Assembly (NCBI GenBank): GCA_043815185.1
Contig: JBDRJF010000023.1
Span: 1 to 59,493, forward strand
Origin: Candidatus Omnitrophota bacterium
Lineage (GTDB): Bacteria; Omnitrophota; Gorgyraeia; Duberdicusellales; 4484-171
DNA: 59,493 nucleotides
Direction: 5' to 3'
Numbering within the stretch: position 1 is the stretch's first letter; each line of letters starts with the position of its first letter. The notes under the pieces are model-generated. The model was not told where the DNA came from. It saw only the letters and a program-made list of their open reading frames with translations, and made no database searches. The translations under genes and the position numbers were made by a program. Below, one piece after another: positions 3,491 to 18,906 of the stretch.

Positions 3491-3570
3491 ACTCTAATCT
3501 CCTCAAATTTACGAAGCAAATTTAATTCCGGACCATCATAGTTTTTTCTATCAGACGAGAGATTTGCTTC

Positions 3571-3888
3571 TTATTTCCGTACCACCCCTGTACCTCGACA
3601 GACACTGCAGGGGAGGTTTCCATCTACCTTATAACCGCTGCCTTCACAATTAGGGCATTCCTCTTTACAGCCTCGAGATGCAACACTGCCTTTTCCGTTA
3701 CAGGCAGAGCAGGTAACCCGACTATGGGGATGAACGCCAGTGGCCTTACAAAAGGCACATTTAATCCTCGGCTCATCAACCCTAACCTTTCCTGTGCCGC
3801 CGCATACCTGACATGCAGCCAATTTTGACAGCAGATTGAAAGGGTCTTTACCTTTACCCTTACAAAAGGCGCATTTTATTTCACTCAT
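3571..3888 (-). CDS. Stand-alone DnaJ-type zinc-finger protein (six CxxCxGxG repeats)
   Basis: Repeats CAFCKGKG, CQVCGGTG, CAFCKATG, CSACNGKG, CPNCEGSG and CSVCRGTG. Paralog of 1287..1664. Confidence 0.7.
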   Translation of the reverse strand: MSEIKCAFCKGKGKDPFNLLSKLAACQVCGGTGKVRVDEPRIKCAFCKATGVHPHSRVTCSACNGKGSVASRGCKEECPNCEGSGYKVDGNLPCSVCRGTGVVRK

Positions 3889-3896
3889 CGTCTCAC

Positions 3897-4631
3897 TTAT
3901 CCTTTCTTCTTTCTTCCTCTCTTCTTTCCTTTCTTCTTCCCCTTCTTAACAGCTTCCTTAACTGTGGTTACTTTTTCTCCGGCTTCGATTCTGGGCATTA
4001 CTCCGCCTCTTCGGGATTTGGCTAAAGAGGAAGCCATACTCTGCCATGCACCTTTTGCGTCGGCCATATCAGAGCTATACTCGCCCAAGAGCTTCTTGAT
4101 ACTGCTGACTATGCCGTCAACATATCTAGCTAAGCTCTTTTTTAAAGCACCACTCATCTCGGCATGAGATTCGTCAAACTCTTTTAACATCTTCTTAACC
4201 TGTTTTTCAAGTTCCTCAGCATCTTTAACAAGCTTGTCTTTTAGTTCTTTTGACGTCTTGGTCCGATCCGTGCTCATCTGTTTAAGCACACCCTGAGCTT
4301 CCTTGAGTAGACCTTTCACATACTTTGCCACATTTTTAACGAAGCCGGCCAAATCCTTAGCCTGTTGTTCACTCATCTCCTGGTGGTTCTTCTGGAATAT
4401 TTTGAGCATATCTCCTACAGTCTTAGACAAATCCTTAGCAAAATCAGCTAAATTCTTAGCCTGTTCGCTGGCCATCTTCTTCCTATCCGCGGCAAACCCT
4501 TTTACATCCTTCCGTGCATCAGCCAGTGCCTTGCGGGTATCAACCACTAAATCACCCAAAGCCTTGACCCGAAGATCATAGGAAGCAATGATGTTTTCGG
4601 TAATACTTTTCATACTATCAGCTATTCCCAT
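3897..4631 (-). CDS. Coiled-coil repeat protein with a 33-residue period and a Lys/Gly/Arg-rich tail (candidate GvpC-like shell-binding protein)
   Basis: MASEQAKNLADFAKD... and MSEQQAKDLAGFVKN... start exactly 33 aa apart. At DNA level the 11-mer cttagcctgtt recurs at 4356 and 4455, 99 nt apart. The C-terminus reads KKGKKKGKKRGRKKKG. Confidence 0.6.
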   Translation of the reverse strand: MGIADSMKSITENIIASYDLRVKALGDLVVDTRKALADARKDVKGFAADRKKMASEQAKNLADFAKDLSKTVGDMLKIFQKNHQEMSEQQAKDLAGFVKNVAKYVKGLLKEAQGVLKQMSTDRTKTSKELKDKLVKDAEELEKQVKKMLKEFDESHAEMSGALKKSLARYVDGIVSSIKKLLGEYSSDMADAKGAWQSMASSLAKSRRGGVMPRIEAGEKVTTVKEAVKKGKKKGKKRGRKKKG

Positions 4632-6608: not shown

Positions 6609-7982
6609 TTATTCCAATTGAAACTCTCTTATCTTCGAATAGAGGCTGGTACGGTCTATCTTAAGGATTTTAGCAGCCTTGGTTTTATTGCCGCTTACTT
6701 TAGTTAAAGTTTGTTTAATTGCTTCTCTTTCGATTTGTTCGGTGACTTTTTTGGTCATTTCCCATAGAGAGGTTCCCTTATCTAAATCAGGCTGAAATTG
6801 TAGGCTTTTGGGTAAAGTAGAATTATTTAAACCTAGGTCACCGGAACTAATCATACTTGAATCAGCCAAAAGTACGGCTTTTCTGATTGCATTCTTTAAC
6901 TCTCGGACATTGCCCGGCCAATTATAAGCCAGTAAATGTTTCATGGCTTCAGGAGATATCTCTTCTATTTTTTTGTTAAGTTTCTGATTTTCTTCTTCTA
7001 AAAAACATTTGGCTAAAACAGGAATGTCTTCTTTTCTTTCCACCAAGGAAGGTAAATCTATACAAAACTCATTTAATCTATGAAACAAATCATTTCTAAA
7101 CTTTCCCGCTCTTACCTCCTCCCAAAGGTTAGTCCCGGTAGCGGCAATAATTCGAACATTTACGCTTATGTCCTTCTTACCTCCTAAATGCTGTAATTTC
7201 CGCTCTTCAATTACCCGTAATAACTTTGCCTGTACGGCCAAAGATAAATTGGCAATCTCATCTAAAAATAAAGTGCCGCCTTGAGCCTGTTCAAATTTGC
7301 CTTCCTTTCTCTCCTCAGCTCCGGTAAAAGCGCCTTTCTCATAGCCGAATAATTCACTTTCCACTAAACTTTCCGGGATTGCTCCGCAATCTATAGGCAC
7401 AAATGGTTTATTAGCTCTTTTGCTCTTTTGATAAATCAAGTTAGCAATAACCTCTTTGCCGGTTCCGCTTTCACCCTCTAGAATAACCGTCATGTTTGTG
7501 CAAGCAACAATTTCTACTTGCTTTAAAACCTTCTTTATCTGAGGACTTTCTCCCATCACTATTTCTATAGTTTCTTTTTCGCCTAATTTTTTTCTTAACC
7601 TTTCTACTTCTCTACTTAAATATTGAGTCTTAAGGGCTTTTTTAATAGTAAAAACCAGCTCTTCATTGTTGAAAGGTTTGGTAACATAATCAAATGCCCC
7701 TAACTTTATCGCTTTCACTGCTTCTTTAACCTCGCTATAGGCAGTAAGCATTATAATAATTAAATCTTTATCTCTTCTTTTCATTTCCTCTAAAATCTTC
7801 ATCCCATCCATACTGGGAAGCTTAAGGTCTAACAAAACTAAATTGGGGCAATTTCTTTCAACTGCCTTAAGAGCACTCCTCCCATCTCCGGCACTAACCA
7901 GATCATAACCTTCCTCTCCTAAAACAGCTGAAAGATTAAAACAGAAGTCTTTATCATCATCTACAATAAGGATAGTTTCCAT
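6609..7982 (-). CDS. Sigma-54-dependent response regulator (NtrC family: REC-AAA+-HTH)
   Basis: REC domain (LLDLKLPSMDG), Walker A GESGTGKE, GAFTGA loop (EKGAFTGA) and C-terminal Fis-type HTH (KTKAAKILKIDRTSLYSKI). Confidence 0.9.
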   Translation of the reverse strand: METILIVDDDKDFCFNLSAVLGEEGYDLVSAGDGRSALKAVERNCPNLVLLDLKLPSMDGMKILEEMKRRDKDLIIIMLTAYSEVKEAVKAIKLGAFDYVTKPFNNEELVFTIKKALKTQYLSREVERLRKKLGEKETIEIVMGESPQIKKVLKQVEIVACTNMTVILEGESGTGKEVIANLIYQKSKRANKPFVPIDCGAIPESLVESELFGYEKGAFTGAEERKEGKFEQAQGGTLFLDEIANLSLAVQAKLLRVIEERKLQHLGGKKDISVNVRIIAATGTNLWEEVRAGKFRNDLFHRLNEFCIDLPSLVERKEDIPVLAKCFLEEENQKLNKKIEEISPEAMKHLLAYNWPGNVRELKNAIRKAVLLADSSMISSGDLGLNNSTLPKSLQFQPDLDKGTSLWEMTKKVTEQIEREAIKQTLTKVSGNKTKAAKILKIDRTSLYSKIREFQLE

Positions 7983-7996
7983 TTAACCTACTTCCC

Positions 7997-8599
7997 TTAA
8001 CTAGCTATCTTTCTTATATTTCTTAATATATCTTCCTCAGTAAAAGGTTTATCAATAAAGGCAAAAACTCCTTTTCTTTTAGCCTCTCTTCTAATTTCAT
8101 CATCTCCATAAGCAGAAATTATAGTTACTAAGGTCTGCGGGCTTATCTTTCTGATCTTAGAAAGCAGTTTAATTCCGTCACCGTCAGGAAGTTTTAAATC
8201 TAAAAAAATTAGGTCCGGCGCCTCCTTCTTTACCTGACTTATAGCATTTCTCCTTGTATTAACAACTTCTACCTTATAGTTTTTTGAGCTTAAAAAATCA
8301 GCTAAAAGCGCACACAAATCTTCTTCATCTTCTACAATTAAAATGTTCTTTATTTGCTTCTTTAAAGGTTCAGCGTAAACTATCGGTTTCTCTTTATTCC
8401 GACGTTTTTCGCACTGCTTAAGAAATAGCTTAAATTCATCAAGTTCATCAAGTCTGCGCCAACCCGAAAGGCCGCTGCGCCAAACAAAAGTTTCTTCCAT
8501 TTTAACTTTTCCTGTAGAAATCCACTTTTGCAATCGCGAAATATAAATTGACCTATATATATCTGCTCCTTTTCTGATATCGTATTTTATTTCAACCAC
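7997..8599 (-). CDS. GYF_2-like N-terminal domain fused to a receiver (REC) domain
   Basis: The N-terminus WISTGKVKMEETFVWRSGLSGWRRLDEL resembles a GYF_2 domain. C-terminal REC domain (ILIVEDEEDL...FLDLKLPDGDG...K). Confidence 0.7.
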   Translation of the reverse strand: MVEIKYDIRKGADIYRSIYISRLQKWISTGKVKMEETFVWRSGLSGWRRLDELDEFKLFLKQCEKRRNKEKPIVYAEPLKKQIKNILIVEDEEDLCALLADFLSSKNYKVEVVNTRRNAISQVKKEAPDLIFLDLKLPDGDGIKLLSKIRKISPQTLVTIISAYGDDEIRREAKRKGVFAFIDKPFTEEDILRNIRKIAS

Positions 8600-8619: not shown

Positions 8620-9852
8620 TTATTTTAAACGCGACTCTCTCAATTTCTGTCTAACTGGCAGAGAAACTGTAAATGTAGAACCCTTTCTCCACTTACTTTC
8701 CACCTCTATTGTCCCCTCATGGCTTACCACCACTCCATAGCAAAGGGTTAATCCTAAACCTACACCTTCATTCTTGGTGCTAAAGAAAGGATCGAACATC
8801 TTGATTATATCTTTCTCGGGAATCCCTTTACCTGTATCCTCAATTCTGGTCACGAAAAAATTTTCCTTAATTTCAGTAAGGATAGTTAACTTGCCTCCCT
8901 TAGGCATAGCCTCAATAGCATTGAGAACTAAATTTAAAAATACCCGCCCCATCTGTTCTTTATCTATCATTATTTTGGATGGTTTAGAATAAAAGTGCTT
9001 AACTATTTCTATCTTCCGGGATTCAATCTTAATCCATACTGTACTTAAAACATTTTTTAATACCTTATGGATATCAGAGAGGCACATATTAAGTTTTGGT
9101 GGCCGGGCACAGTTTAGGAGTTCGGTAATTAAATAATTAATTCTCTGAATATTTCTTTCCACAATTTCAATATGTTTTTTTGCTCTAGAATCTTTATTGG
9201 CTATAGCTTTCCTAAGTTGTTGGATAGACATAGATACATTGGCCAAAGGATTTCTTACTTCATGGGCAACACTGGCAGCTATCCGGCCAGTGTAGGCAAG
9301 TTTCTCAGAACGAATTAGCTCTTCCTCACTATCTTGTAGTTCCTTATAAACCTTCTCTAATTCTTCTGCCTTTCTCCTTTCAGCTTCGGCAATTTTTATA
9401 TGCTCCTTCTCTATTCTTTTACGTTCAGTAATATCCCGGATAATACCCACAAGCCCGATTATATTACCCTTATCATCAAACCAGAGAAACTTAATTGTAT
9501 GAAGCCAATGCTTTTCCCCCTCCTTGTCAGTTATGTGTTTAGTAAACTCCCTTGGCTTTCCGGTATCGAAAACTAACTGATCATCTTTAATGATTTCAGC
9601 AGCTTTTTTTCTATCTAATAGTATCTCCGCGTCATCCTTTCCAATAACTTGTTGGCCAGATAACCCTAAAGTCTCTAAAGCCTTGTTATTAACAACTACG
9701 TATTGGCTGTTTAAGTTTTTAAAAAAGATAGCTCCATGTTCCGATGCCACCATAAATTGATATTGCCTAAATCTTTTCTCTGCCTTTTCGCGTTCAATGA
9801 TGTCATTTATATCAGTTTTAATATTATTGATCAGCATTTTAGGTTCTTCCAT
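8620..9852 (-). CDS. PAS-domain sensor histidine kinase
   Basis: PAS region, H-box ASVAHEVRNPL, N box LNLVLNAIEAM, G boxes DTGKGI and GVGLGL. Confidence 0.85.
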   Translation of the reverse strand: MEEPKMLINNIKTDINDIIEREKAEKRFRQYQFMVASEHGAIFFKNLNSQYVVVNNKALETLGLSGQQVIGKDDAEILLDRKKAAEIIKDDQLVFDTGKPREFTKHITDKEGEKHWLHTIKFLWFDDKGNIIGLVGIIRDITERKRIEKEHIKIAEAERRKAEELEKVYKELQDSEEELIRSEKLAYTGRIAASVAHEVRNPLANVSMSIQQLRKAIANKDSRAKKHIEIVERNIQRINYLITELLNCARPPKLNMCLSDIHKVLKNVLSTVWIKIESRKIEIVKHFYSKPSKIMIDKEQMGRVFLNLVLNAIEAMPKGGKLTILTEIKENFFVTRIEDTGKGIPEKDIIKMFDPFFSTKNEGVGLGLTLCYGVVVSHEGTIEVESKWRKGSTFTVSLPVRQKLRESRLK

Positions 9853-9954
9853 TGCCTGTTTATTCCTTTTTTATTACAAAAAATTTATATCAACATTACG
9901 ATTTCGTAATTATCCCTTGAGGACTTATATTGATATTTCGCATTACCTAGTTTA

Positions 9955-10191
9955 TTATTCTTTATCAAGCGCTCTTTCTCTCTCCCATCTCTCGGTCAAT
10001 TCTAATCCTATTCTTTTACCATCATTAGAGATAATAAAGATAATCCTTCCCCACCCATCAAGAATTTGTAGAGCATTCTGTTTTGCTTTAAGGTCGCCTT
10101 TACCGTATATCTCAAGTGTCACACCTAAAGCCTCTTTTATCTTTTCTATTTCCCCTTTACTCAAATGACAAATTTCTTTTTTCTGCCCCAT
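9955..10191 (-). CDS. Hypothetical small protein
   Basis: 78-aa ORF with an AAGGAGGAAC SD-like sequence upstream. No recognisable motif. Confidence 0.3.
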   Translation of the reverse strand: MGQKKEICHLSKGEIEKIKEALGVTLEIYGKGDLKAKQNALQILDGWGRIIFIISNDGKRIGLELTERWERERALDKE

Positions 10192-10312
10192 AAGTTCCTC
10201 CTTAAATTTTGAAACGATTCTGGTGAATTTCTATCTATATCCTTCAATTTATTTAAGACTTTGCTCATTACCAACTCTCAGTATTGTCGATGAGTTAAAT
10301 TAGGAATAAAAT

Positions 10313-10357
10313 AAAAAAAACCCAAATCTTACCTTTTGTTAAAAGCCAAAATTTGGG
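10313..10357 (-). terminator. Rho-independent terminator
   Basis: Minus-strand RNA forms the stem CCCAAAU...AUUUGGG (with an inner CUUUU/AAAAG extension) followed by U8. Confidence 0.6.
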
Positions 10358-10544
10358 CTATCTTTTCGATTCGCCTATATTTCGAAGCATAAAGTGATAT
10401 GTGATATAGCATGCTACATCCATCCTTCCTAATGTCAAGAATAAACTTTGGTTGGTAAACTTTTTTTCTAAAATCATCCCTTCAGCAATAACTAACTTAA
10501 ATTAAGTATTGCTTAATTTTATAGCAAAAAATATGTGTAGCTTA

Positions 10545-10943
10545 TTACTCTAATGTCCCATCTCCCGCATAACTAGCAATTTTCTGCCTATCCTCTTTTT
10601 TAATCTCTAAAAATTCTACTCCTATCCTATATTTATTCTCTCCTTGTTCGAAACTCTCTTTCTTTATGTTTCTTGACCAAATTACCCTTGCTAAAGTAGC
10701 GATAGAAAAAATTATATCCTTAGAATGTTTGATTGGTTGATGTATCTCGAGTTCTAATTTGCTTCCTGGGGGAATATCCCTTTCTGTCTCAAACATTAAA
10801 CCACCACCGCTTATATTCTTAGCGATAGCTTTAACTTTATCCGAAGTATTTGACTCTAAACAATAGGTGATAAAAAGATTCTTCTCTAGACGTAAAAATT
10901 TTCTTCTCTCGAAACTCACAAATTTATCTTTTTCCATTACCAA
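10545..10943 (-). CDS. Single-domain PilZ protein (c-di-GMP receptor type)
   Basis: Has ERRKFLR (RRxxxR) and NISGGG (D/NxSxxG). Paralog of 15297..15695. Confidence 0.8.
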   Translation of the reverse strand: MVMEKDKFVSFERRKFLRLEKNLFITYCLESNTSDKVKAIAKNISGGGLMFETERDIPPGSKLELEIHQPIKHSKDIIFSIATLARVIWSRNIKKESFEQGENKYRIGVEFLEIKKEDRQKIASYAGDGTLE

Positions 10944-11014
10944 TTTTCTTGCCTCCCTTCAATTAGCGAAATTTTTAAATAGACTAAGCGGGCGCAAAAA
11001 CAACCCACAGCAAT

Positions 11015-11524
11015 TTAGCTTCTGTATTTCTTATATTTCACCATCTTTAATGCAGTACCTTCGTTAAGGATGGATTTAAATTCGCATTTATCCATTGTTT
11101 TCTTAATCAGGGGAATCCCCCTGATTGATTCACCAGGCTGGCTCTCTTTATCTAAAAGTAGAGAATCCTCGGCACCAAAAATAAACCCTTTTCCTTTATC
11201 TCTTACGAATATGGCTAATTTGTTAGAGTAAATAAAAAACTTAATTCCTATTTTCCCTTCTTTACCTTTACTGTAGGCGTGCTGAACAACGTTAGCACAT
11301 GCCTCACCTATTGCGAAACCAATATCTTCTGCATCATTCTTATTAAACGCCATTCTGTCTGTAATTACCGATGTTACAATTCGAGGCACCTTCAGCCATT
11401 CAGCCAAAGCAGGTAAATTAAAACTTATAATCCTTTTGATTTTATTTCTTGTCTTTTGATTCTGTTGAGATCGTTTCATGCAGCTTTCCCTAACAACAAA
11501 ACCCAAATTCTGCCAGTCAATCAC
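11015..11524 (-). CDS. RsbW/SpoIIAB-like anti-sigma factor serine kinase (HATPase_c)
   Basis: N-box-like GEACANVVQHAY and G-box VRDKGKGF. The true start may be an internal Met. Confidence 0.6.
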   Translation of the reverse strand: MIDWQNLGFVVRESCMKRSQQNQKTRNKIKRIISFNLPALAEWLKVPRIVTSVITDRMAFNKNDAEDIGFAIGEACANVVQHAYSKGKEGKIGIKFFIYSNKLAIFVRDKGKGFIFGAEDSLLLDKESQPGESIRGIPLIKKTMDKCEFKSILNEGTALKMVKYKKYRS

Positions 11525-11595
11525 GATTAATCTTTCTTTCCCCTGGGCGAAAATTCAAGAATTGTCTGTAAGGATTAAATTGCTTGCCTCGGCCC

Positions 11596-11841
11596 TTACT
11601 CCTCTTCCAGCTTCCTTATCGCCCCCCCAAGGGTATACTTCTTACTGTCGACTAATGCTTTAACCAAAACAACTCTATGGATATCTTCTTGGGAATATTT
11701 TCTAAATTTTTTTATCCCGCATCGGACATACTTTGGTTTAACAATACCTAGCCTTTCCCAATAACGCAGTCTCTCCGGAGATATACCTATCTGTTGTGTT
11801 ATTTCTACTATCCCCAATCTATGGTTTCTATTCTTTTTCAT
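11596..11841 (-). CDS. Short MerR-family HTH protein
   Basis: IVEITQQIGISPERLRYWERLGIVKP...RKYSQEDI is a typical MerR N-terminal HTH. No effector domain. Confidence 0.75.
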   Translation of the reverse strand: MKKNRNHRLGIVEITQQIGISPERLRYWERLGIVKPKYVRCGIKKFRKYSQEDIHRVVLVKALVDSKKYTLGGAIRKLEEE

Positions 11842-11849
11842 TCGATAAC

Positions 11850-12053
11850 TTAAATTTTAGGGCACTCTTTATAGCAGTTGTGGTAATTATTTGTGGTCAA
11901 ACAAAACTTTTCTGCCGCCTCTTCTGGAACATAAGTCAAACTACTAACCCCAGGGCGGCCAGTAAGACACGAATTTACTTTTCCAATCTCCAAAAAAAAC
12001 CACCATACTCTCGATAGCAAGGACATTTTGAAGCTCTTTCTATGATTGTTCAT
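11850..12053 (-). CDS. Hypothetical Cys-containing small protein
   Basis: ORF track gives 11850..12074. An internal ATG (MNNHRKSF) removes the overlap with the upstream gene. No recognised domain. Confidence 0.3.
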   Translation of the reverse strand: MNNHRKSFKMSLLSRVWWFFLEIGKVNSCLTGRPGVSSLTYVPEEAAEKFCLTTNNYHNCYKECPKI

Positions 12054-12060
12054 GCTCTCC

Positions 12061-12336
12061 TTACTCAATAACAACTTCTTTTGTTTTGGCTGCGGCTAAA
12101 TGGCTATATTTCTGCATGTATTTGACGCTAAGAGAGTGACAGTTTAGGCAATCTAGATTATTTACATCATAACGAAAACAGGGCAAGAGTGCTCGAAACT
12201 CCAGTAAAATATCCTGAGCATAATATTGTTTTTCTTTAAAGCTACGGGGTTCTCTTGTCTTCAGCTCAGTCCTTCTAATTACTGCCTGAGCCTCAAGAAA
12301 AATAGTGCATTTAACCTTTTGATCTGGAAATTCCAT
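12061..12336 (-). CDS. Hypothetical protein
   Basis: 91-aa ORF co-directional between PilZ and MerR. Contains a CLNC motif. No recognised domain. Confidence 0.3.
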   Translation of the reverse strand: MEFPDQKVKCTIFLEAQAVIRRTELKTREPRSFKEKQYYAQDILLEFRALLPCFRYDVNNLDCLNCHSLSVKYMQKYSHLAAAKTKEVVIE

Positions 12337-12351
12337 TTTAAAAAATTATCT

Positions 12352-12729
12352 TTATCTATAATTTCGCCATTGGCTTACGCAATTTGAGATGTTATTTTTA
12401 TTATCCTTACTTAATTCTTTAAACTGAATAGCTACACCAGAATTACCGAAACCATCCCCCGGCTCTGCTGATTCAATTCTCACTATTACCCCTATACAAT
12501 CGATTACCTTTGGCCATACAGTAATTCTTGATGATCTAGACCTATTTAATAACAAAATAACTCTCACCTCCCCCTTTAAAAGCCCGGTTTCGTTAGTTTT
12601 GCAATATAGTCCAGAACAACTTATATTTTTGGTTTCAATTATAAGGGTAAAACCTTCTCCTCTAATTGTAACTGGAAAGCTACATTCTATTCGGGGATAG
12701 TATCTTCTTTCAGTTGGAGATTTAAACAT
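12352..12729 (-). CDS. Single-domain PilZ protein
   Basis: Has ERRYYPR (RRxxxR) and NISCSG (NxSxxG). Confidence 0.75.
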   Translation of the reverse strand: MFKSPTERRYYPRIECSFPVTIRGEGFTLIIETKNISCSGLYCKTNETGLLKGEVRVILLLNRSRSSRITVWPKVIDCIGVIVRIESAEPGDGFGNSGVAIQFKELSKDNKNNISNCVSQWRNYR

Positions 12730-13093
12730 ATAAAGTTAGTTTGTTTTCCAAACCTCTAGGTCTGCTTTGTGCTTTGCTTGATATTCCGCTCCCTTCTCTT
12801 TCCGGGTTTTCACTACCATCTTTTATCCTCCTTTTCAGGTTATTTTTTTATTTTAAGACCGCATTAAATCCAAAAATACCCAAATTTCCTTGTGCTCTCG
12901 GTGGTAAGGGCATCTTGACTGTTTCGTTTTCCTCTTTGAGAGAATTTTTCACTTCCTACCTTCGCAAAAGCCGATATCCTATCCTAATTTGCCTTTAATT
13001 ATTGCTTATAACGGTAAGAAGAGCAACGGGGAATGAAAGGGTAGATAATGGATACTTAAAGTACCCATTCAAATATGAGGAAGGTAATCTATC

Positions 13094-15202
13094 TTAAAAT
13101 TTTTGTAGAAAAGAGACTAGGTTAATACCTTTACTAGATATCTTTATTTTATGCCGGATATTTTTGCGGTGTTTTCCTACTGTTTGAATAGAAATATTTA
13201 GAAGATTGGAAATCTCTTTGCTGGTAAGGCTGCTCTTTAACATATTGCAAATTTCAATCTCTCTAGGGGTTAGCTTAAGGTTTTTTTGGGTTATTTTACG
13301 GCCAAATGAAGAGGTTAGTTCTTTTAAGTGATATTGGAGCAAATTAAGATATTTAGCCGATGTTCCTTTTAATCTAAGTTTTCTTAAAATTGGCAGTAAT
13401 GATTCATCTATATTGATTGCTATATCTTCCTTTGTCTTATTTTTTGTCCTCTCGATATGCTCTATCATTTCTTTAAGCGCCAAGTTCTTTTGCTCCAAAG
13501 CTAATTTTTGTTCCCGTAGCATTGACTCAGACTTTTTCAGCTCCTCCTCCGCCTTCTTGCGCTCGGTGGTGTCCATACAAATACCCTGCATATCGACTAC
13601 CTTACCCTTCTCGTCTTTTTGCCATCTTACCCTATCTTCCAGCCATTTTATTTCTTTATTTCTGCTAACGATCCTGTACTCTAAGACTATATCTTCTTCT
13701 TCTTGAGCCTTGCTTAACAAAGAGAAAAGCCTTTCTTTATCTTCCGGATAAATTGTCTTCTCCCATAAGGAAGGGTCGGAAAGCCACTCTTTCTGGGTGT
13801 AGCCATAAATTTCTTCTACTGCTTTATTGACATAAATAGCTGCGAAATTCTTCGGGTCAGCTATATACACTAATTCCTTCATGTTCTCAGCTAATTCTCT
13901 ATATTTCTTTTCTGATTTCTCTAAGGCCTCCTCCACCTTCTTGCGCGAAAACGCGATGCCGATGCTAGTGCCCAACCCCTCAAAAAAAATAATCATATCC
14001 AGCGTAAAAGAGTTGCGTTTACGGTCATTAATCTGCAACAGCCCTATTATGCTGCTGCCAGCCTTGAGCGGAATCAGCGCCACGGATTCGTAGCCTGCGG
14101 TATTGCAGCGGTTGCGGGTGCGTGCCTGGCGCTCCTTTTCTGTGGTCGAGGCCAAAAGATCTGTGGTGCTATTGGTCCAGAAACTACCGCCCTCGGTAAA
14201 AAACGGCAGGTTAGCGTCAAACCGGCCAGAAAGGATACTCCCGCACATACACTCTAATACCGCATTCCCCTTTATGTCACGTATAATATTCCTCTTGTCT
14301 TCGCGGGCGCAAAAATACCGCCCTTTAAGTAGGAAATCTTCAGAAAAACCTTTAGTTTCGTAGTAAGGAAAATCTTCTCCTTCGCGTAGGCGGACACCAA
14401 TAGCCTCAAAACCCATGCTTTGTTTAATCAGCTGCAAGATAGAGGCAATAGTACCCGTTGTATCCTGCGGGTCGCTGAGTAAAACCAGCGTATCATGGCT
14501 AAGCTTTTCCATGATTTCCACCTTCTTGCGCTCAGAGCTTTCAAGAATCTCCCACTTACCTTCCCGTCTAATAAGGGCGAATTGATGATTGTTAACCACA
14601 TCTACAATTTCTGATGCCCCGCACTTATCAAGAGAATAGGTGCATATGGCAAGCATCCGATGTTTGCCGATAGCATTATTCACTGCTGCCTCATAATCAG
14701 CAAATTTTTTCCAATCATTTTTTTCAAGCCACGAGATATTTCCGGTTAAGCGCAAACCATCAAACCCCATCTTCAAGGCCTGGGCTTCTTTTTCAACCCA
14801 ACCCCGGAGTATATTATCAGCTTCGAACTTGCCCGATTTTGTATACCATTGACTATGGTCCAGGATTTCTATTTGGCCTTTTGTAATATACTTATCCAGA
14901 TCCTTTACTTTTTCTTTAAGTGCTTTCTTTACATCTTCAACTCCTAACGGTTCAAAAGTAACCCACATACAAAATTCATTATTCTCCAAACCCGCTTTAA
15001 AATAAGGCACCAGGATATCAATTAGATCTTCTTTGGTCTGGTAAAATTGGCAGAAGTGTGTACCCCAGGAAACATCACCGATAATGTCAATTCCCATTTT
15101 TCTAACTTTCTCAGCAGCTATAGGCGCTTTCGCTTTCCTGCGCTTGCTGATATCGTTGATATCGGTCTTAATATTACTATTCAGCACTTCAGGTTTATCC
15201 AT
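13094..15202 (-). CDS. MEDS-GAF-PAS-coiled-coil-LuxR(HTH) multidomain transcription regulator
   Basis: N-terminal MEDS-type motif GTHFCQFY...LVPYFKAGLENNEFCMWV, a central GAF-like region and a PAS region. C-terminal LuxR HTH LTPREIEICNMLKSSLTSKEISNLLNISIQTVGKHRKNI. Confidence 0.7.
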   Translation of the reverse strand: MDKPEVLNSNIKTDINDISKRRKAKAPIAAEKVRKMGIDIIGDVSWGTHFCQFYQTKEDLIDILVPYFKAGLENNEFCMWVTFEPLGVEDVKKALKEKVKDLDKYITKGQIEILDHSQWYTKSGKFEADNILRGWVEKEAQALKMGFDGLRLTGNISWLEKNDWKKFADYEAAVNNAIGKHRMLAICTYSLDKCGASEIVDVVNNHQFALIRREGKWEILESSERKKVEIMEKLSHDTLVLLSDPQDTTGTIASILQLIKQSMGFEAIGVRLREGEDFPYYETKGFSEDFLLKGRYFCAREDKRNIIRDIKGNAVLECMCGSILSGRFDANLPFFTEGGSFWTNSTTDLLASTTEKERQARTRNRCNTAGYESVALIPLKAGSSIIGLLQINDRKRNSFTLDMIIFFEGLGTSIGIAFSRKKVEEALEKSEKKYRELAENMKELVYIADPKNFAAIYVNKAVEEIYGYTQKEWLSDPSLWEKTIYPEDKERLFSLLSKAQEEEDIVLEYRIVSRNKEIKWLEDRVRWQKDEKGKVVDMQGICMDTTERKKAEEELKKSESMLREQKLALEQKNLALKEMIEHIERTKNKTKEDIAINIDESLLPILRKLRLKGTSAKYLNLLQYHLKELTSSFGRKITQKNLKLTPREIEICNMLKSSLTSKEISNLLNISIQTVGKHRKNIRHKIKISSKGINLVSFLQKF

Positions 15203-15296
15203 TACTATTGCTTCTTTTTTCTCCCATTATTTAACTACACTTAACTTAATTTGAGTATTACTTAAATTTATGAGCAAAAAAATACCTGTTGGCTAT

Positions 15297-15695
15297 TTAG
15301 CTAATATGTTTAGTGCGGTTATCCACATACCTAGTGATTAGCTCTCTATCTTCTTCTTTGATCCCTGGAAATTCTACTCCTACTCTATATTTATTCTCTC
15401 CTTGCTCGAAATTCTCCTTCTCTATTTTTTCTACCCAAATTACTTTTGCCAAAACAGGTACACAGCGAATCGTACTCTTACCACAATTTATAGGTTGATA
15501 TATCTCCAGCTCCAATTCTTTCTCCTTAGAAATCTTTCTTTCTGTTTCAAACATTAATCCACCAGCACTTATATCGCAAGTAATAGCCTTTAACTTAATA
15601 TGGGGGCTCGCTCTTAAAAAACATACAATAAACATATTATCTTTGAAGCGAGGCAATTTTCTCCTCTCTAAATCTGGAAATCTCTCTTTCTCCAT
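15297..15695 (-). CDS. Single-domain PilZ protein, paralog of 10545..10943
   Basis: Has ERRKLPR and DISAGG. Shares GGLMFETER, ELELEI.QPI and FEQGENKYR.GVEF with the paralog. Confidence 0.8.
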   Translation of the reverse strand: MEKERFPDLERRKLPRFKDNMFIVCFLRASPHIKLKAITCDISAGGLMFETERKISKEKELELEIYQPINCGKSTIRCVPVLAKVIWVEKIEKENFEQGENKYRVGVEFPGIKEEDRELITRYVDNRTKHIS

Positions 15696-15734: not shown

Positions 15735-16280
15735 TTAAACTAGCCCAAAAATAATCCAAAGCAATCTAGCTTCTGTTTCACCAATATTTCTCACTTTTTG
15801 AGGACTCTGTGTATAATCGCAATAAAGACTATCGTCTTTTTTAAGAATTAGTTTTTCTGACTCACATAAAAATTCCACCTTTCCTTCAAGTAACATTCCA
15901 AATTTTTCGCCTTCAGAATAAATCAACTCCTTTCTTAACTCTGCACCGATTCCTATAGTAAAAACTTGTGGCTGCATCTTTATGTTCAAAAGTCCAGAAG
16001 CCAAAGTTTCACAAAAGACATTTTTTTCTTCACCAATAACTCTTTTAGCCCTGTCCTTCTTAACAAAGATTAGTCCCTTTCCCTCTTCGCCTCCAAAGAA
16101 ATAACCTACCTTTGTGTTTAAGGCCTCGGATATTTTTTCTAACGAGCCAACCGAAGGCGATGCAAGACCCCTTTCTAATTGAGAAAGGAAACTTGTAGTT
16201 AGCCCCGCCTTTTTTGCTAATTCCTTCAAAGTGATTCTTTGACGAGTGCGCAAATCTTTTATTCTGGCCCCAATTTTCAT
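15735..16280 (-). CDS. XRE-family HTH plus cupin domain regulator
   Basis: N-terminal IKDLRTRQRITLKELAKKAGLTTSFLSQLERG and a C-terminal cupin-like beta-barrel region. Confidence 0.8.
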   Translation of the reverse strand: MKIGARIKDLRTRQRITLKELAKKAGLTTSFLSQLERGLASPSVGSLEKISEALNTKVGYFFGGEEGKGLIFVKKDRAKRVIGEEKNVFCETLASGLLNIKMQPQVFTIGIGAELRKELIYSEGEKFGMLLEGKVEFLCESEKLILKKDDSLYCDYTQSPQKVRNIGETEARLLWIIFGLV

Positions 16281-16458: not shown

Positions 16459-17790
16459 ATGTCGCTACAAGTAAAACTCACCAATAAATTAACCTATAAA
16501 TTAAAACTGACTCCCCAAATGAGACTGGGCATTAAACTCTTACAAATACCCCTGATTAAACTCCAGGAATTTATAAAACAAGAAGTTGAAGAAAATCCTC
16601 TTTTAGATGTGGAAAGCCCACCGGCGCTTAAACAGGAAAATTATAATTTCGACGATGAAGAAAAGAAAAATTATCGAGAAAGCCTCTTAACAAAGCCTGC
16701 TACACTTGCAGAACACCTTTTAAGGCAATTGCGCTTGTTTGTTGATACTTGCGATAAACGCCGGGCCGGAGAATTAATTATCGGTAATATAGATAACAAT
16801 GGATATTTACAATCTTCCGTAGAAGATATGGCTGAATCGCTCAAAACAACAAAGTCTTTAGTTGAAGGGGCATTATCCTTAATTCAAACCTTTGATCCTA
16901 TCGGTGTAGGAGCAAAAGACTTAAGGGAGTGTCTTTTATTACAACTAAAAGCAAAAGGGAAACAAAACCCCTTTGCCTGCCAAATTATCGATAAGTATCT
17001 GCCCTACCTTGAAAAGAAAAGCTACGAGTTTATTGCCAAGAAACTGTCCGCCGAAGGCGGATCCGTCTCTGGCGGAAAAGTTTCGGTTGAACAAATCAAG
17101 GAAGCAATAAAAGAAATAGCCCAGCTAGAACCTAAACCCGGCCGTTCTTTTAATGCAGAAAAAACTGTATACTTAATACCAGATGCTATATTAAAGAAAA
17201 ACAAAAAGCATTATGAGGTTGTATTCAATGACTGGGAATTGCCTCGTGTTACGCTTAATAATAAATATAAGCAAATGATAAAGCAAAAAAATACGCCCCG
17301 GGACACAAAAGAATACTTAAAAGAAAGACTTAGGGCTGCTCGGGCCTTGATTGAGGCTGTAGAAAAACGTAAAAAAACAATCCAAGAGATAATGGAAGCT
17401 ATTGTTTATATTCAGAAAGACTTTCTGGATAATGGAAAAACTAACTTTAAGCCAATGACTTTAGAACAAATTGCCAAAAAAATCGGCAAGCATAAATCTA
17501 CAATAAGCCGGGCCGTAGCTGACAAATATCTTCAGACACCTTGGGGTATCTTGGAATTAAGGTCTTTTTTAAATTCCGGGGTTAAGCAGAAAAACGGAGA
17601 GCTTTTCTCATCTAAGGCAATTAAATCAAAGATAAAAGGCCTAATCGAAAACGAAAACAAAAAGAAACCTTTAAGTGATCAGCAGATTGCCGGGTTCTTC
17701 AAACGAGAAGGAATATCTGTATCCCGCCGCACCATCGCCAAATACCGAACCCAGCTCAAACTCCTCCCCTCCCAATCACGACGCGAATAA
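16459..17790 (+). CDS. rpoN: RNA polymerase sigma-54 factor
   Basis: N-terminal LKLTPQM..GIKLLQ, C-terminal HTH and RpoN box SRRTIAKYR. Confidence 0.9.
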   Translation: MSLQVKLTNKLTYKLKLTPQMRLGIKLLQIPLIKLQEFIKQEVEENPLLDVESPPALKQENYNFDDEEKKNYRESLLTKPATLAEHLLRQLRLFVDTCDKRRAGELIIGNIDNNGYLQSSVEDMAESLKTTKSLVEGALSLIQTFDPIGVGAKDLRECLLLQLKAKGKQNPFACQIIDKYLPYLEKKSYEFIAKKLSAEGGSVSGGKVSVEQIKEAIKEIAQLEPKPGRSFNAEKTVYLIPDAILKKNKKHYEVVFNDWELPRVTLNNKYKQMIKQKNTPRDTKEYLKERLRAARALIEAVEKRKKTIQEIMEAIVYIQKDFLDNGKTNFKPMTLEQIAKKIGKHKSTISRAVADKYLQTPWGILELRSFLNSGVKQKNGELFSSKAIKSKIKGLIENENKKKPLSDQQIAGFFKREGISVSRRTIAKYRTQLKLLPSQSRRE

Positions 17791-17922: not shown

Positions 17923-18618
17923 ATGTCACGAATAGCTAGAATAGTATATCCAGCGTATCCTCATCATATAGTCCAACGGGGAAACAATAAACAGCCTATA
18001 TTTGGCGATGATCAAGATAAGCACTTTTACTTTGGATTACTGAAAAAATATGCCCGGCAAGGCGGTTGTAAAGTACATGCCTACTGCCTTATGACTAACC
18101 ACACTCATCTTTTACTAGTTCCTAATGAAAAAAATTCTCTAGCAATAACAATGCAAAAATTAAGCATGTCCTATACTCAACATATTAACAGAAAATATGA
18201 CCGATCCGGTAGATTGTGGGAAGGCAGATTCTTCTCTGCACTGATTGATAAAGAATCGTACTTATGGACAGTCTGTAGATATATTGAACAAAATCCTCTC
18301 CGGGCCAGAATAAGTGAGAAAGCTACTGATTATATGTGGTCTAGTGCAAGAATAAACAGCGGTTTAATAAAGTCTGATTTCCTTGAGCCTATATGGGAAA
18401 CATACTTAGATAAAAATGAATATCAAAGGCTTTTAGCTGAAGGTATTGAAGAAGCAGAAATAAAAAAGGTAAGAAAATCTACTTCGAAAGGGATTCCCTT
18501 AGGTTCTCAGGAGTTTTTCGATAGAATGGTTGGGCAATTTGGAAAATTGATAATCCCTAACCCCAGAGGAAATCCCTACAGAAAAAGAAATGGGGTCTGT
18601 CCCGAATTAAAAAATTAA
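17923..18618 (+). CDS. REP-associated tyrosine transposase (RayT, IS200/IS605 Y1 HUH family)
   Basis: YPHHIVQRGNN, HUH motif NHTHLLL and catalytic Tyr region RYIEQNPLRA. Confidence 0.85.
   Translation: MSRIARIVYPAYPHHIVQRGNNKQPIFGDDQDKHFYFGLLKKYARQGGCKVHAYCLMTNHTHLLLVPNEKNSLAITMQKLSMSYTQHINRKYDRSGRLWEGRFFSALIDKESYLWTVCRYIEQNPLRARISEKATDYMWSSARINSGLIKSDFLEPIWETYLDKNEYQRLLAEGIEEAEIKKVRKSTSKGIPLGSQEFFDRMVGQFGKLIIPNPRGNPYRKRNGVCPELKN
18588..18609 (-). repeat. REP-like repeat copy 3 (inverted; overlaps the last codons of the transposase)
   Basis: aaatggggtctgtcccgaatta. Confidence 0.7.
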
Positions 18619-18645: not shown

Positions 18646-18808
18646 GCCGATAAGGGGGTGGCTTATGATATTTCACCTCCCGACTGCAACCCAGCCACCA
18701 TAGTAAACCCAAGTGTTTAACTTACCCTACGATCAGATAACCGCTCCTGGATACCTTAGGCCTGTTGGCTTTGCGCCCCTCGGTTTCCCGAAGTTTGCCT
18801 TCATCGGC
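18646..18808 (-). promoter_or_regulatory. GEMM-I (c-di-GMP-I) riboswitch-like structured RNA
   Basis: The minus-strand RNA reads GCCGAUGAAGGCAAAC-UUCGG-GAAA-CCGAG-GGGCGCAAAGCC-AACAGG-CCUAAG... This parallels the Vc2 aptamer AGGGCAAAC-stem-GAAA-stem-GGGACGCAAAGCC...GGCCUAAA. A GAAA tetraloop is present with 11-nt receptor halves CCUAAG and UAUGG. A long closing helix pairs GCCGAUGAAGG with CCUUAUCGGC. Confidence 0.65.
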
Positions 18809-18906
18809 TTTAATCTAAATATACAATATTTTTTGATCAGATTTCAAGGCCAGCAAAATTTACTCTTGGGTAAAATAGGGTCATCAACTCCCTTTTTTCT
18901 GGGGAA

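What the first reader, a model, noticed from the sequence alone, without database searches (positions are those of the whole stretch)
9797..15695. Duplicated PilZ-plus-sensor module: paralogous PilZ genes, a conserved 3' flank, and a shared N-terminal peptide on two otherwise unrelated sensor regulators
Seen in sequence: PilZ 10545..10943 and PilZ 15297..15695 are both 132 aa with long shared runs (GGLMFETER, ELELEI.QPI, FEQGENKYR.GVEF). About 40 nt downstream of each stop is conserved: 10494-10534 aacttaaattaagtattgcttaattttatagcaaaaaatat versus 15243-15285 aacttaatttgagtattacttaaatttatgagcaaaaaaatac. The next sensor gene on the strand begins with nearly the same peptide in both cases. These are MEEPKMLINNIKTDINDIIEREKAEK (PAS histidine kinase, 9852) and MDKPEVLNSNIKTDINDISKRRKAKA (MEDS-GAF-PAS-LuxR, 15202). 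After that the two proteins diverge completely. In copy 1 a terminator and a 78-aa ORF are inserted between PilZ and the sensor. Inference: the short conserved N-terminal tag may be a docking peptide for the cognate PilZ adaptor, linking c-di-GMP input to two different output regulators. Alternatively it is just a remnant of a segmental duplication.
Basis: partly seen in the sequence, partly recalled or inferred. Interest (0 to 1): 0.65.

Follow-up and report, generated by a model that had tools for sequence, protein, structure and literature searches.

The report
Two PilZ-headed sensor gene units
An uncultivated groundwater bacterium carries two old copies of a widespread unit, a small c-di-GMP receptor gene followed by a conserved 55-base control element, each ahead of a different sensor gene. 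The short peptide the two sensors share is a lineage-specific but selected leftover of a PAS-domain linker, not a general docking tag.

Summary
PilZ1 (10545-10943) and PilZ2 (15297-15695) are 52% identical. A ~50-nt flank follows each stop codon. The PAS kinase and the MEDS-GAF-PAS-LuxR regulator share their first 24-26 residues (15/24 identical) and nothing after that.

This is not a recent duplication. Synonymous sites are saturated in both PilZ and the tag, and the two PilZ genes are not sister sequences. The 3' flank is a family-wide element found in about 45 related loci (34 distinct sequences). It always abuts the PilZ stop, always precedes a co-oriented gene, and is more conserved than the PilZ coding DNA. 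It is most likely an internal promoter/operator plus leader.

The usual gene order is sigma-54 <-> HTH-cupin, PilZ, element, then variable sensors. MEDS sensors recur beside this PilZ. One locus encodes a PilZ::MEDS-PAS-LuxR fusion protein, which supports PilZ-sensor coupling.

The tag is under purifying selection. Outside the window it occurs only in one orthologous kinase. It is absent from 120 MEDS homologues, and its core matches the generic PAS-end "IRDITERK" motif. The PilZ-docking idea is therefore unsupported but not excluded.

The parts
16459..17790 (+). rpoN (sigma-54), divergent from the cupin-PilZ operon. The same arrangement occurs in L004, L044 and L065.
15735..16280 (-). HTH_3 + Cupin_2 regulator. 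It is the most constant neighbour of this PilZ subfamily (60-70% identity across loci). A sigma-70-like promoter, TTGACA-16-TAAGAT, lies at 16354-16327.
15297..15695 (-). PilZ2, a 132-aa stand-alone PilZ with RRKLPR (RxxxR) and DISAGG (D/NxSxxG). The model shows a beta-barrel plus a C-terminal helix.
15235..15285 (-). Conserved element, copy 2: T-tract, TTGCT, AATTTAAGT, ACTCAAATTAAGTTAAGT. It is 78-80% identical to elements in other genomes.
15195..15227 (-). 10-codon mini-ORF (MGEKRSNSNG). It may be a decayed start of the Cys-rich micro-ORF that follows the element in L010, L036, L038 and L044. This is a weak inference.
15125..15202 (-). Tag copy 2: the first 26 codons of the MEDS regulator (MDKPEVLNSNIKTDINDISKRRKAKA). 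AlphaFold2 gives pLDDT 40-46, and the segment does not pack on the MEDS domain.
13094..15202 (-). Tag::MEDS-GAF-PAS-LuxR(GerE) one-component regulator, 702 aa. Pfam confirms MEDS, PAS and GerE.
12352..12729 (-). PilZ3, a third and more distant stand-alone PilZ (RRYYPR, NISCSG), with no element after it.
10545..10943 (-). PilZ1, a stand-alone PilZ with RRKFLR and NISGGG.
10489..10537 (-). Conserved element, copy 1.
10313..10438 (-). Leader of orf78: sigma-70-like promoter TTGACA-16-TAGCAT (10438-10411), conserved 20-nt motif GGCGAATCGAAAAGATAGCC (10375-10356), and an intrinsic terminator hairpin plus U8 (10359-10313).
9955..10191 (-). orf78, a conserved small protein with no Pfam family. It has 77% identity in L010, where it likewise lies downstream of a PilZ gene.
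9775..9852 (-). Tag copy 1: the first 26 codons of the PAS kinase (MEEPKMLINNIKTDINDIIEREKAEK).
8620..9852 (-). Tag::PAS-HisKA-HATPase_c histidine kinase, 410 aa.
6609..8599 (-). GYF_2-REC protein (7997-8599) and REC-sigma-54-activator-HTH_8 regulator (6609-7982). These are the conserved tail of the operon.

Best explanation
**What the region is.** It is one instance of a conserved c-di-GMP-linked regulatory cluster of uncultivated groundwater and sediment bacteria. The order is sigma-54 <-> HTH-cupin regulator, a stand-alone canonical PilZ, a ~55-nt conserved element that starts at the PilZ stop codon, then an interchangeable set of sensor genes. Those are a Cys-rich micro-ORF, a PAS kinase with GYF-REC and an NtrC-type activator, or MEDS sensors.

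**The window.** It holds two PilZ-plus-element units, which are old paralogues. PilZ2 heads the MEDS-GAF-PAS-LuxR gene. PilZ1 heads orf78 and the PAS-kinase operon.

**Shown.**
- The PilZ identity and c-di-GMP binding motifs.
- The family-wide conservation and fixed placement of the element.
- The recurrent PilZ-sensor adjacency and one PilZ::MEDS fusion.
- The age of the tag and the purifying selection on it.

**Inferred.**
1. The element is an internal promoter (-35 TTGCC, 18 bp, -10 TAACTT) with overlapping palindromic operator arms (TAAGT-N3-ACTTA and CTTAAC-TTAA-RTTAAG) and a short leader with a Shine-Dalgarno sequence. It drives whichever sensor gene lies downstream.
2. c-di-GMP-loaded PilZ acts in trans as an adaptor on its neighbours, namely the HTH-cupin regulator and/or the downstream sensor. 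Second-messenger level would then gate expression or activity of those sensors.
3. The 26-residue tag is the original 5' end of the downstream kinase. That end is itself the last strand plus 'DITERK' linker of a lost N-terminal PAS domain. It travelled with a PilZ-element unit and became fused in frame to the MEDS gene. It has since been kept by selection for a lineage-specific role, such as an N-terminal helix or strand used for self-association or partner binding.
For: **PilZ identity.**
- Pfam PilZ hits are above threshold, and RxxxR and [D/N]xSxxG are intact.
- The AlphaFold2 model (pLDDT 79) matches MotI, Alg44, MapZ, YcgR, MrkH and PA0012.
- Nearly all relatives are stand-alone proteins of 110-150 aa.

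**Age of the duplication.**
- For PilZ1 versus PilZ2, dN is 0.35 and dS is 1.24.
- PilZ2 has 64-65% identical relatives elsewhere but is only 53% identical to PilZ1.
- The two are not sister sequences in the NJ tree.

**The element.**
- nhmmer finds it in about 45 loci (34 distinct sequences), on the PilZ strand only.
- It starts -9 to +10 nt from the PilZ stop codon.
- A co-oriented gene follows it wherever enough downstream sequence was available (26 of 29 distinct loci; two contigs end too soon, and in L039 only short ORFs were called before the co-oriented fusion gene about 590 nt on). The gene starts at or just past the element end, typically 8-125 nt later, whatever it is: micro-ORF, REC, three kinase types, or RepA_C.
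- There is no indel between TTGCC and CTTAAC across the alignment.
- Copy 2 is 78-80% identical to elements whose adjacent PilZ genes are 64-71% identical overall and 46-60% identical at third codon positions.
- It does not fold better than shuffled sequence as RNA (z from +0.25 to -1.6).

**PilZ-sensor coupling.**
- HTH-cupin lies directly upstream in 33 of 52 assessable PilZ genes. A kinase lies downstream in 23 of 44, and a MEDS gene in 7 loci.
- L034 repeats the window's architecture.
- L039 ORF 2529-4331 is a 600-aa PilZ+MEDS+PAS+GerE protein with no intergenic remnant at the junction.
- Published precedents exist for stand-alone PilZ adaptors: HapZ-SagS, MapZ-CheR1 and TssZ-HinK (PMC10912698).

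**The tag.**
- pS is 0.93 and pN is 0.20 (Fisher p 5e-7). For codons 1-18 they are 0.64 and 0.13.
- It is present in the L020 orthologous kinase. There, 21 N-terminal residues are 86% identical to that protein's own post-PAS linker.
- Homologues of this PAS type are preceded by '..DITERKRAEE.L..YQFMVESAH'.
- L034 keeps a 5' kinase remnant between the element and its MEDS gene. This shows that cassettes land in the 5' end of the resident kinase.
Against: - No transcript data exist, so the promoter reading of the element is inference.
- Its -10 is weak (TAACTT), and the simple sigma-70 scan did not call it in the window.
- No similar motif was found upstream of the cupin gene, so the binding protein is unknown.
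- The spacer inside the second palindrome varies (TTAA, TTTTA, GGAA). That is unusual for a dimer operator.
- The PilZ::MEDS fusion rests on a single metagenomic contig.
- Strong purifying selection on the tag in the MEDS protein shows it does something there, and this account does not name that role.
- The order of events (which gene donated the tag, and when) is not resolved. PilZ1 does not group with the kinase-adjacent PilZ genes of L020 or L034 in the NJ tree.
Confidence: 0.55

Rival explanations
1. The shared N-terminal peptide is a docking motif through which the cognate PilZ, with c-di-GMP, binds two different output regulators.
For: - The tag is under purifying selection at the protein level in both genes.
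- It is a flexible N-terminal extension that does not pack on the MEDS domain (pLDDT 40-46).
- L7, I11, T13, I15, D17, I18 and R21 are invariant in the three known copies.
- Both tagged genes are the first sensor gene after a PilZ-element unit. In L020 the tagged kinase starts 18 nt after a PilZ stop.
- Stand-alone PilZ adaptors are known to bind partner proteins.
Against: - The tag is absent where the same PilZ subfamily sits next to homologous kinases or MEDS sensors: 92 loci searched, and only L020 is positive.
- It is absent from the listed best 120 MEDS homologues, most of which align only from about residue 30, and from 9 of 10 PAS homologues read.
- L039 fuses PilZ directly to MEDS without it.
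- Its invariant residues are those of the generic PAS-end 'I-R-D-I-T-E-R' motif.
- Between orthologous kinases the tag is less conserved (12/27) than the whole protein (63%).
Confidence: 0.12
2. The similarity is only the scar of a recent segmental duplication, with no function in the flank or the tag.
For: The order PilZ, flank, tag is the same in both copies.
Against: - dS is saturated in both PilZ and the tag.
- The PilZ copies are not sister sequences.
- Each window element is closer to elements in other genomes than to the other window copy.
- The element is conserved across about 45 loci.
Confidence: 0.03
3. The conserved element is a site-specific recombination or integration hot spot. 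That would explain why different gene cassettes follow it and why the PilZ-element unit is repeatedly duplicated.
For: - Downstream content is highly variable: micro-ORF, REC, three kinase types, MEDS, and RepA_C/TraG/T4SS coupling protein.
- The element is duplicated in tandem in L032 and L033.
- A truncated kinase 5' remnant follows the element in L034.
- The core is TTAA-rich and palindromic.
Against: - No integrase or recombinase is consistently linked. L004 has a resolvase and the window has an IS200-like gene, both beyond rpoN.
- The element keeps fixed promoter-like spacing, and a Shine-Dalgarno sequence plus ATG follows directly.
- Variable downstream content is equally expected for a conserved promoter.
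Confidence: 0.12
4. The element acts at the RNA level, as a 3' UTR, processing site or translational operator of a polycistronic cupin-PilZ-sensor transcript.
For: - The arms ACTTAAC/GTTAAGT can pair around loops of differing length and sequence (TTAA, TTTTA, GGAA).
- The base 5' of the stem varies A/G opposite T.
- No terminator separates PilZ from the element.
Against: - Folding energy is no better than for shuffled sequence in six representatives.
- Uncompensated stem changes occur in L004, L013, L032 (first copy) and L066.
- There is no Rfam match.
- Sequence rather than pairing is what is conserved.
Confidence: 0.15

Closest known systems
Stand-alone PilZ adaptor proteins: HapZ (PA2799)-SagS, MapZ (PA4608)-CheR1 and TssZ (PA0012)-HinK of Pseudomonas aeruginosa
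   Same: - A single PilZ domain of about 110-150 aa with RxxxR and D/NxSxxG motifs.
- The predicted fold matches MapZ and PA0012 structures.
- These adaptors are known to act in trans on a histidine kinase, a methyltransferase or a transcription factor (PMC10912698).
   Different: - There is no detectable sequence relationship to any solved PilZ (profile search of PDB sequences is empty).
- Here the PilZ is fixed in an operon after an HTH-cupin gene and is followed by a conserved non-coding element.
- The partner has not been identified experimentally.
- A natural fusion to a MEDS regulator exists (L039).
PilZ-containing transcription regulators such as MrkH of Klebsiella
   Same: PilZ is coupled to transcription control. 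The L039 fusion joins PilZ to a LuxR-type DNA-binding output. MrkH is among the structural matches.
   Different: MrkH has a PilZ domain plus a YcgR-N-like domain and binds DNA itself. Here the PilZ is separate in nearly all genomes, and the DNA-binding domains lie in neighbouring proteins (HTH-cupin, LuxR, NtrC).
PAS C-terminal 'DIT' motif and coiled-coil linker between PAS domains or between PAS and HisKA
   Same: Tag residues 15-21 (I-N-D-I-I-E-R and I-N-D-I-S-K-R) match 'I-R-D-I-T-E-R-K'. The best matches to the tag elsewhere are such linkers. The L020 N-terminus duplicates its own post-PAS linker.
   Different: Here the motif sits at the extreme N-terminus with no PAS core before it. In one protein it precedes a MEDS domain rather than a PAS domain.
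MEDS-domain sensors (DcmR type)
   Same: The window protein has a strong MEDS match (162 bits) and a confidently modelled MEDS domain.
   Different: No paper in the searched library mentions both PilZ and the MEDS domain. The N-terminal tag is absent from the listed best 120 MEDS homologues.

Membership tests
PilZ domain c-di-GMP receptors (PF07238) | Profile match above the curated threshold | tested here: met
   50.8, 47.3 and 37.7 bits for the three PilZ genes, against a cutoff of 22.5
PilZ domain c-di-GMP receptors (PF07238) | RxxxR and [D/N]xSxxG c-di-GMP binding motifs | tested here: met
   RRKFLR/NISGGG in PilZ1 and RRKLPR/DISAGG in PilZ2. Both arginines of the RxxxR motif (R12, R16) and G46 of the [D/N]xSxxG motif are invariant in 31 relatives; the serine varies in a few.
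PilZ domain c-di-GMP receptors (PF07238) | Six-stranded beta-barrel fold with a flexible N-terminal arm | tested here: met
   The AlphaFold2 model has pLDDT 79, six strands and a C-terminal helix. Foldseek top hits are all PilZ domains, with E down to 1e-5 and TM 0.6-0.8.
PilZ domain c-di-GMP receptors (PF07238) | Binds c-di-GMP | not testable with these tools
   Needs ITC, DRaCALA or a similar assay
Stand-alone PilZ adaptors (HapZ/MapZ/TssZ type) | No other domain in the protein | tested here: met
   132 aa, PilZ only. Relatives are 110-150 aa.
Stand-alone PilZ adaptors (HapZ/MapZ/TssZ type) | Direct binding to a partner protein that changes the partner's activity | not testable with these tools
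   Only indirect support: conserved adjacency and one PilZ::MEDS fusion.
Recent segmental duplication | Near-identical DNA, including synonymous and intergenic positions, with the copies as each other's closest relatives | tested here: not met
   dS is 1.24 in PilZ and saturated in the tag. The copies are not sister sequences. Each element is closer to elements of other genomes.
Sigma-70-type promoter (for the element) | -35 and -10 hexamers at 17 +/- 1 bp, with a transcription start downstream | tested here: inconclusive
   TTGCC(T) and TAACTT lie at a constant 18 bp with no indel in 34 sequences. The -10 is weak and was not called by the scan in the window. There are no transcript data.
Sigma-54 promoter (for the element) | GG and GC doublets separated by 10 nt (TGGCAC-N5-TTGC) | tested here: not met
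   Read directly. Copy 2 has GG-N9-GC, and copy 1 and most relatives have no GG.
Intrinsic terminator or structured RNA (for the element) | Stable hairpin (with a U-run for a terminator), or a match to a curated RNA family | tested here: not met
   z-scores from +0.25 to -1.6 in six copies. No Rfam match even at E 5.
PAS C-terminal DIT linker (for the tag) | I-x-D-I-T-E-R-K-like motif leading into a helical linker and a PAS domain | tested here: met
   The kinase tag has ...INDIIEREKAEKRFRQYQFMV, against ...IRDITERKRAEEHLKQYKFMV in homologues. L020 carries an internal repeat at 86% identity. In the MEDS copy the helical part has decayed (SKRRKAKAP).

The most novel reading that the evidence does not exclude
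The HTH-cupin regulator and the stand-alone PilZ form a two-protein, c-di-GMP-dependent transcription switch. It acts on the 55-nt element, a promoter-operator conserved across several candidate phyla. The switch sits in front of exchangeable sensor cassettes. In this lineage the 26-residue N-terminal peptide additionally addresses the same PilZ, or another shared partner, to two unrelated sensors.
Probability: 0.2. Interest if true: 0.7.

Novelty: new variant of a known kind. Interest (0 to 1): 0.45.

Why it matters
Stand-alone PilZ proteins are the commonest c-di-GMP receptors, yet the partners of most are unknown. This work yields a well-defined PilZ subfamily with three useful features:

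- a fixed genomic partner, the HTH-cupin regulator;
- a strongly conserved non-coding element at its stop codon;
- recurrent linkage to PAS kinases and MEDS sensors, including a natural PilZ::MEDS-LuxR fusion.

Together these give concrete and cheap hypotheses for how c-di-GMP feeds into two-component and one-component regulators in uncultivated groundwater lineages. The work also provides a previously uncatalogued conserved DNA element for regulatory studies. The shared peptide itself is a clear example of a gene's 5' end being carried onto another gene and then kept by selection.

Tried and rejected
- **Exact-sequence look-up of PilZ2.** Nothing on record.
- **Rfam.** At gathering and at E<=5 thresholds, nothing matched the element, the tag region or the orf78 leader. 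The only window hit is a c-di-GMP-I riboswitch outside the finding.
- **PDB sequence search with the PilZ profile.** Empty.
- **Sigma-54 promoter reading of the element.** Rejected on spacing (read).
- **Terminator or structured-RNA reading.** Rejected on folding.
- **Element-like motif upstream of the cupin gene (autoregulation).** Not seen.
- **Idea that the two window elements are each other's closest relatives.** Rejected. They are 69% identical to each other, against 72-80% to other genomes, although they share two rare substitutions (GCT for GCC, and T for G in AATGTAAG).
- **Idea that the first ten tag residues derive from the Cys-rich micro-ORF (KCPE..N).** The similarity is too weak to call.
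- **RNA-seq runs for transcript ends.** Only DNA metagenomes hold the sequence.
- **Literature.** No paper links PilZ with MEDS, and none links PilZ with an HTH-cupin partner.

Full report
**1. Checking the observation**

On the minus strand, ORFs 10545-10943 and 15297-15695 both match Pfam PilZ above threshold. They are 52% identical in protein and 66% in DNA. About 50 nt after each stop codon are alike. A 23-nt degenerate pattern from this flank matches only these two places in 59 kb, where 0.01 matches are expected.

The PAS histidine kinase (8620-9852) and the MEDS-GAF-PAS-LuxR regulator (13094-15202) begin with MEEPKMLINNIKTDINDIIEREKA and MDKPEVLNSNIKTDINDISKRRKA. That is 15/24 identities with E 1e-5. 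DNA identity falls to 20% straight after codon 26. No third copy exists in any frame of the window.

Copy 1 does carry an extra segment between flank and sensor. It holds a hairpin plus U8 (dG -26.5 kcal/mol, z -3.2) and a 78-aa ORF. Contigs assembled separately from one groundwater run cover 15096-15638 and 10052-10773 without a difference, so the junctions are not assembly artefacts.

**2. This is not a recent duplication**

- Between PilZ1 and PilZ2, dN is 0.35 and dS is 1.24.
- In the 26 tag codons, pS is 0.93 against pN 0.20 (Fisher p 5e-7). In codons 1-18 the values are 0.64 and 0.13.
- PilZ2 has relatives in other metagenomes at 64-65% identity, while PilZ1 is only its 65th-best hit at 53%.
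- In an NJ tree of 60 distinct relatives, PilZ2 groups with the cupin-adjacent PilZ of L034, and PilZ1 lies elsewhere.

The two units are therefore old paralogues. The tag is translated and kept by selection in both genes.

**3. The surrounding locus is a conserved cluster**

I fetched contigs that encode relatives and compared them with the window proteins. The recurring order is rpoN <-> HTH_3-Cupin_2 regulator, PilZ, flank, small ORFs, PAS kinase, (GYF-)REC, NtrC-type activator, mechanosensitive-channel-like protein.

- The cupin gene lies directly upstream of 33 of 52 assessable PilZ genes.
- A kinase lies downstream in 23 of 44.
- MEDS-domain sensors recur next to this PilZ in L019/L064, L034, L072, L074-L076 and L082.
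- L034 repeats the window's architecture: cupin, PilZ, flank, MEDS sensor, a second PilZ, kinase, GYF-REC.
- Tandem PilZ pairs occur in L020, L039 and L071.
- orf78 and its leader and terminator also recur (77% identity in L010).

The window is thus one variant of a family of loci, not a one-off rearrangement.

**4. The 3' flank is a family-wide non-coding element**

A profile built from 11 copies finds the element in about 45 loci, which give 34 distinct sequences. It is always on the PilZ strand and always starts -9 to +10 nt from the PilZ stop. The window has only its two copies.

The consensus is cATATA-TTTTTTGCC-tAt.AATGTAAGtag.aCTTAAC-TTAArTTAAGTgtaGtTAAAC.

The next gene is co-oriented wherever enough downstream sequence was available (26 of 29 distinct loci; two contigs end too soon, and in L039 only short ORFs were called before the co-oriented fusion gene about 590 nt further on). 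It starts at or just past the element end, typically 8-125 nt later, whatever it encodes: a Cys-rich micro-ORF, a REC protein, three different kinase types, or a RepA_C replication protein followed by TraG and a T4SS coupling protein in L006-L009.

Window copy 2 is 78-80% identical to elements of other genomes. The adjacent PilZ genes in those genomes are only 64-71% identical overall and 46-60% at third codon positions. The element is therefore under stronger constraint than the coding DNA. The two window copies are only 69% identical to each other, so their resemblance is explained by the family and not by duplication within this genome.

On its nature:
- It does not fold better than shuffled sequence as RNA.
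- It has no Rfam match.
- It lacks sigma-54 spacing.
- It does have a T-tract, a TTGCC block and a CTTAAC block at an invariant distance with no indel in 34 sequences. These can be read as -35 TTGCCT, 18 bp, -10 TAACTT.
- Two overlapping palindromes are present: TAAGT-N3-ACTTA and CTTAAC-TTAA-RTTAAG.
- In many loci a GGAGG/TAGG-like Shine-Dalgarno sequence and an ATG follow within about 20 nt.

I read it as a compact internal promoter-operator plus leader for whatever sensor gene follows. This is inference. The -10 is weak, the simple scan did not call it in the window, the palindrome spacer varies, and there are no transcript data.

**5. PilZ-sensor coupling**

The PilZ proteins are canonical. 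Both arginines of the RxxxR motif and the glycine (G46) of [D/N]xSxxG are invariant across 31 relatives. The AlphaFold2 model is a six-stranded barrel with a C-terminal helix. Its structural neighbours are MotI, Alg44, MapZ in complex with CheR1, YcgR, MrkH and PA0012. Relatives are almost all stand-alone proteins of 110-150 aa. Such proteins are known to work as trans-acting adaptors on a kinase (HapZ-SagS), a methyltransferase (MapZ-CheR1) or a transcription factor (TssZ-HinK) (PMC10912698).

The strongest new piece of evidence here is L039. Its ORF 2529-4331 encodes 600 aa with PilZ (10-125), MEDS (142-301), PAS and GerE domains in one frame. Its C-terminal half is clearly orthologous to the window's MEDS-LuxR regulator, and a MerR gene 72% identical to the window's follows it. 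The junction (..AEYVEEG|RKTRLDLIRDAPWGTH..) has no intergenic remnant, so this is a true deletion fusion and not a read-through. It rests on a single contig. A fusion of this kind, together with the recurrent adjacency, supports a functional and probably physical link between this PilZ and the MEDS sensor. The equally constant HTH-cupin neighbour is a second candidate partner.

**6. What the tag is**

- The listed best 120 MEDS homologues lack it. Most align only from about query residue 30, and the 14 N-termini I read directly are short and unrelated.
- Of the PAS-kinase homologues, only the L020 orthologue (63% identical overall) has it: MEKAKVLDNKIETNISDITERKQTEQ.
- The next closest orthologue, P0203, starts 18 residues later.
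- Between the window and L020 kinases the tag is less conserved (12/27) than the whole protein.
- Homologues of this PAS type are normally preceded by '..I(R)DITERKRAEE.L..YQFMVESAH..', which is the last strand and linker of an upstream PAS domain. The tag's invariant residues I15, D17, I18 and R21 are exactly that motif.
- In L020, 21 N-terminal residues are 86% identical to the protein's own post-PAS linker.
- Every other weak match to the tag in 92 loci is a DITERK linker.
- AlphaFold2 models the tag on the MEDS protein as a low-confidence extension (pLDDT 40-46) that does not pack on the well-modelled MEDS domain.
- L034 shows how such a piece can arise. A 100-aa ORF between the element and its MEDS gene is the 5' remnant of the resident two-PAS kinase.

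I conclude that the tag is the original 5' end of the downstream kinase, a PAS-end and linker relic. It was carried with a PilZ-element unit and fused in frame to the MEDS gene. In the MEDS copy the linker half has decayed (SKRRKAKAP) while residues 7-18 stayed intact. The peptide has therefore acquired or kept a role there that I cannot name. Docking to PilZ remains possible (about 0.12). However, it is not the general mechanism of PilZ-sensor coupling in this family, because that coupling is conserved where the tag is absent.

**7. Comparison with what is known, and novelty**

The PilZ genes are new members of a known receptor class. They are too distant from any solved PilZ for a profile search of PDB sequences to find them. 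I found no description of the fixed HTH-cupin-PilZ pair, the conserved element at the PilZ stop codon, the recurrent link to MEDS sensors, or the PilZ::MEDS-LuxR fusion. The element is not in Rfam.

I rate the whole as a new variant of a known kind. The shared peptide on its own is an ordinary, if neat, case of a gene's 5' end being carried onto another gene.

**8. Verdict**

| Question | Result |
|---|---|
| Observation | Confirmed |
| Best explanation | Confidence 0.55; descriptive parts high, promoter-operator reading about 0.5 |
| Interest | 0.45 |

Noticed in passing
window 18682-18809 (-): A c-di-GMP-I riboswitch aptamer (RF01051, 59 bits, full length). The gene it should control is missing on that strand. 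An IS200-like Y1 transposase ORF (17923-18618, +) lies directly downstream instead.
   Followed up: partly
window 10313-10438 (-); L010 2300-2440 and 2751-2772; L037 255; L071 1996: orf78 has a conserved leader: a sigma-70-like promoter, the 20-nt motif GGCGAATCGARAAGATAGCC, and a strong terminator. The same 20-nt motif recurs just after orf78 in L010, L037 and L071, directly before the next ATG. This suggests either direct repeats flanking an orf78 cassette or an attenuator/riboswitch-like leader. There is no Rfam match.
   Followed up: partly
window 11850-12729 (-): A third canonical PilZ (12352-12729) is followed 13 nt later by orf91. The N-terminus of orf91 (KVKCTIFLEAQ) and the C-terminus of overlapping orf74 (SCLTGRPG..FCLTTNNYHNCYKECP) resemble the two ends of the Cys-rich micro-ORF that follows the element in L010, L036, L038 and L044. 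This may be a split or frameshifted copy. A MerR gene follows, as in L039 and L033.
   Followed up: no
L039 2529-4331: A 600-aa PilZ::MEDS-PAS-LuxR fusion protein. Its PilZ part is nearly identical in its C-terminal half to the stand-alone PilZ 650 nt upstream, so the duplication and fusion in that lineage are recent.
   Followed up: yes
L006-L009 (for example L006 5417-12396): The cupin-PilZ-element unit is followed directly by RepA_C, TraG_N and a T4SS coupling protein. The unit therefore also travels on a plasmid or an integrative conjugative element.
   Followed up: no
L032 1219-1365; L033 3182-3328: Two tandem copies of the conserved element lie about 40 nt apart, with a 6-codon mini-ORF between them.
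   Followed up: no
window 6609-7982 (-): The receiver domain of the NtrC-type activator matches the Pfam VpsR domain right at its threshold (23.8 versus 23.7 bits). VpsR is, from my own knowledge, a c-di-GMP-binding activator in Vibrio.
   Followed up: no
Contigs from other metagenomes match this stretch at 90-95% identity. This hints at a more recently acquired domain-coding segment.
   Followed up: no
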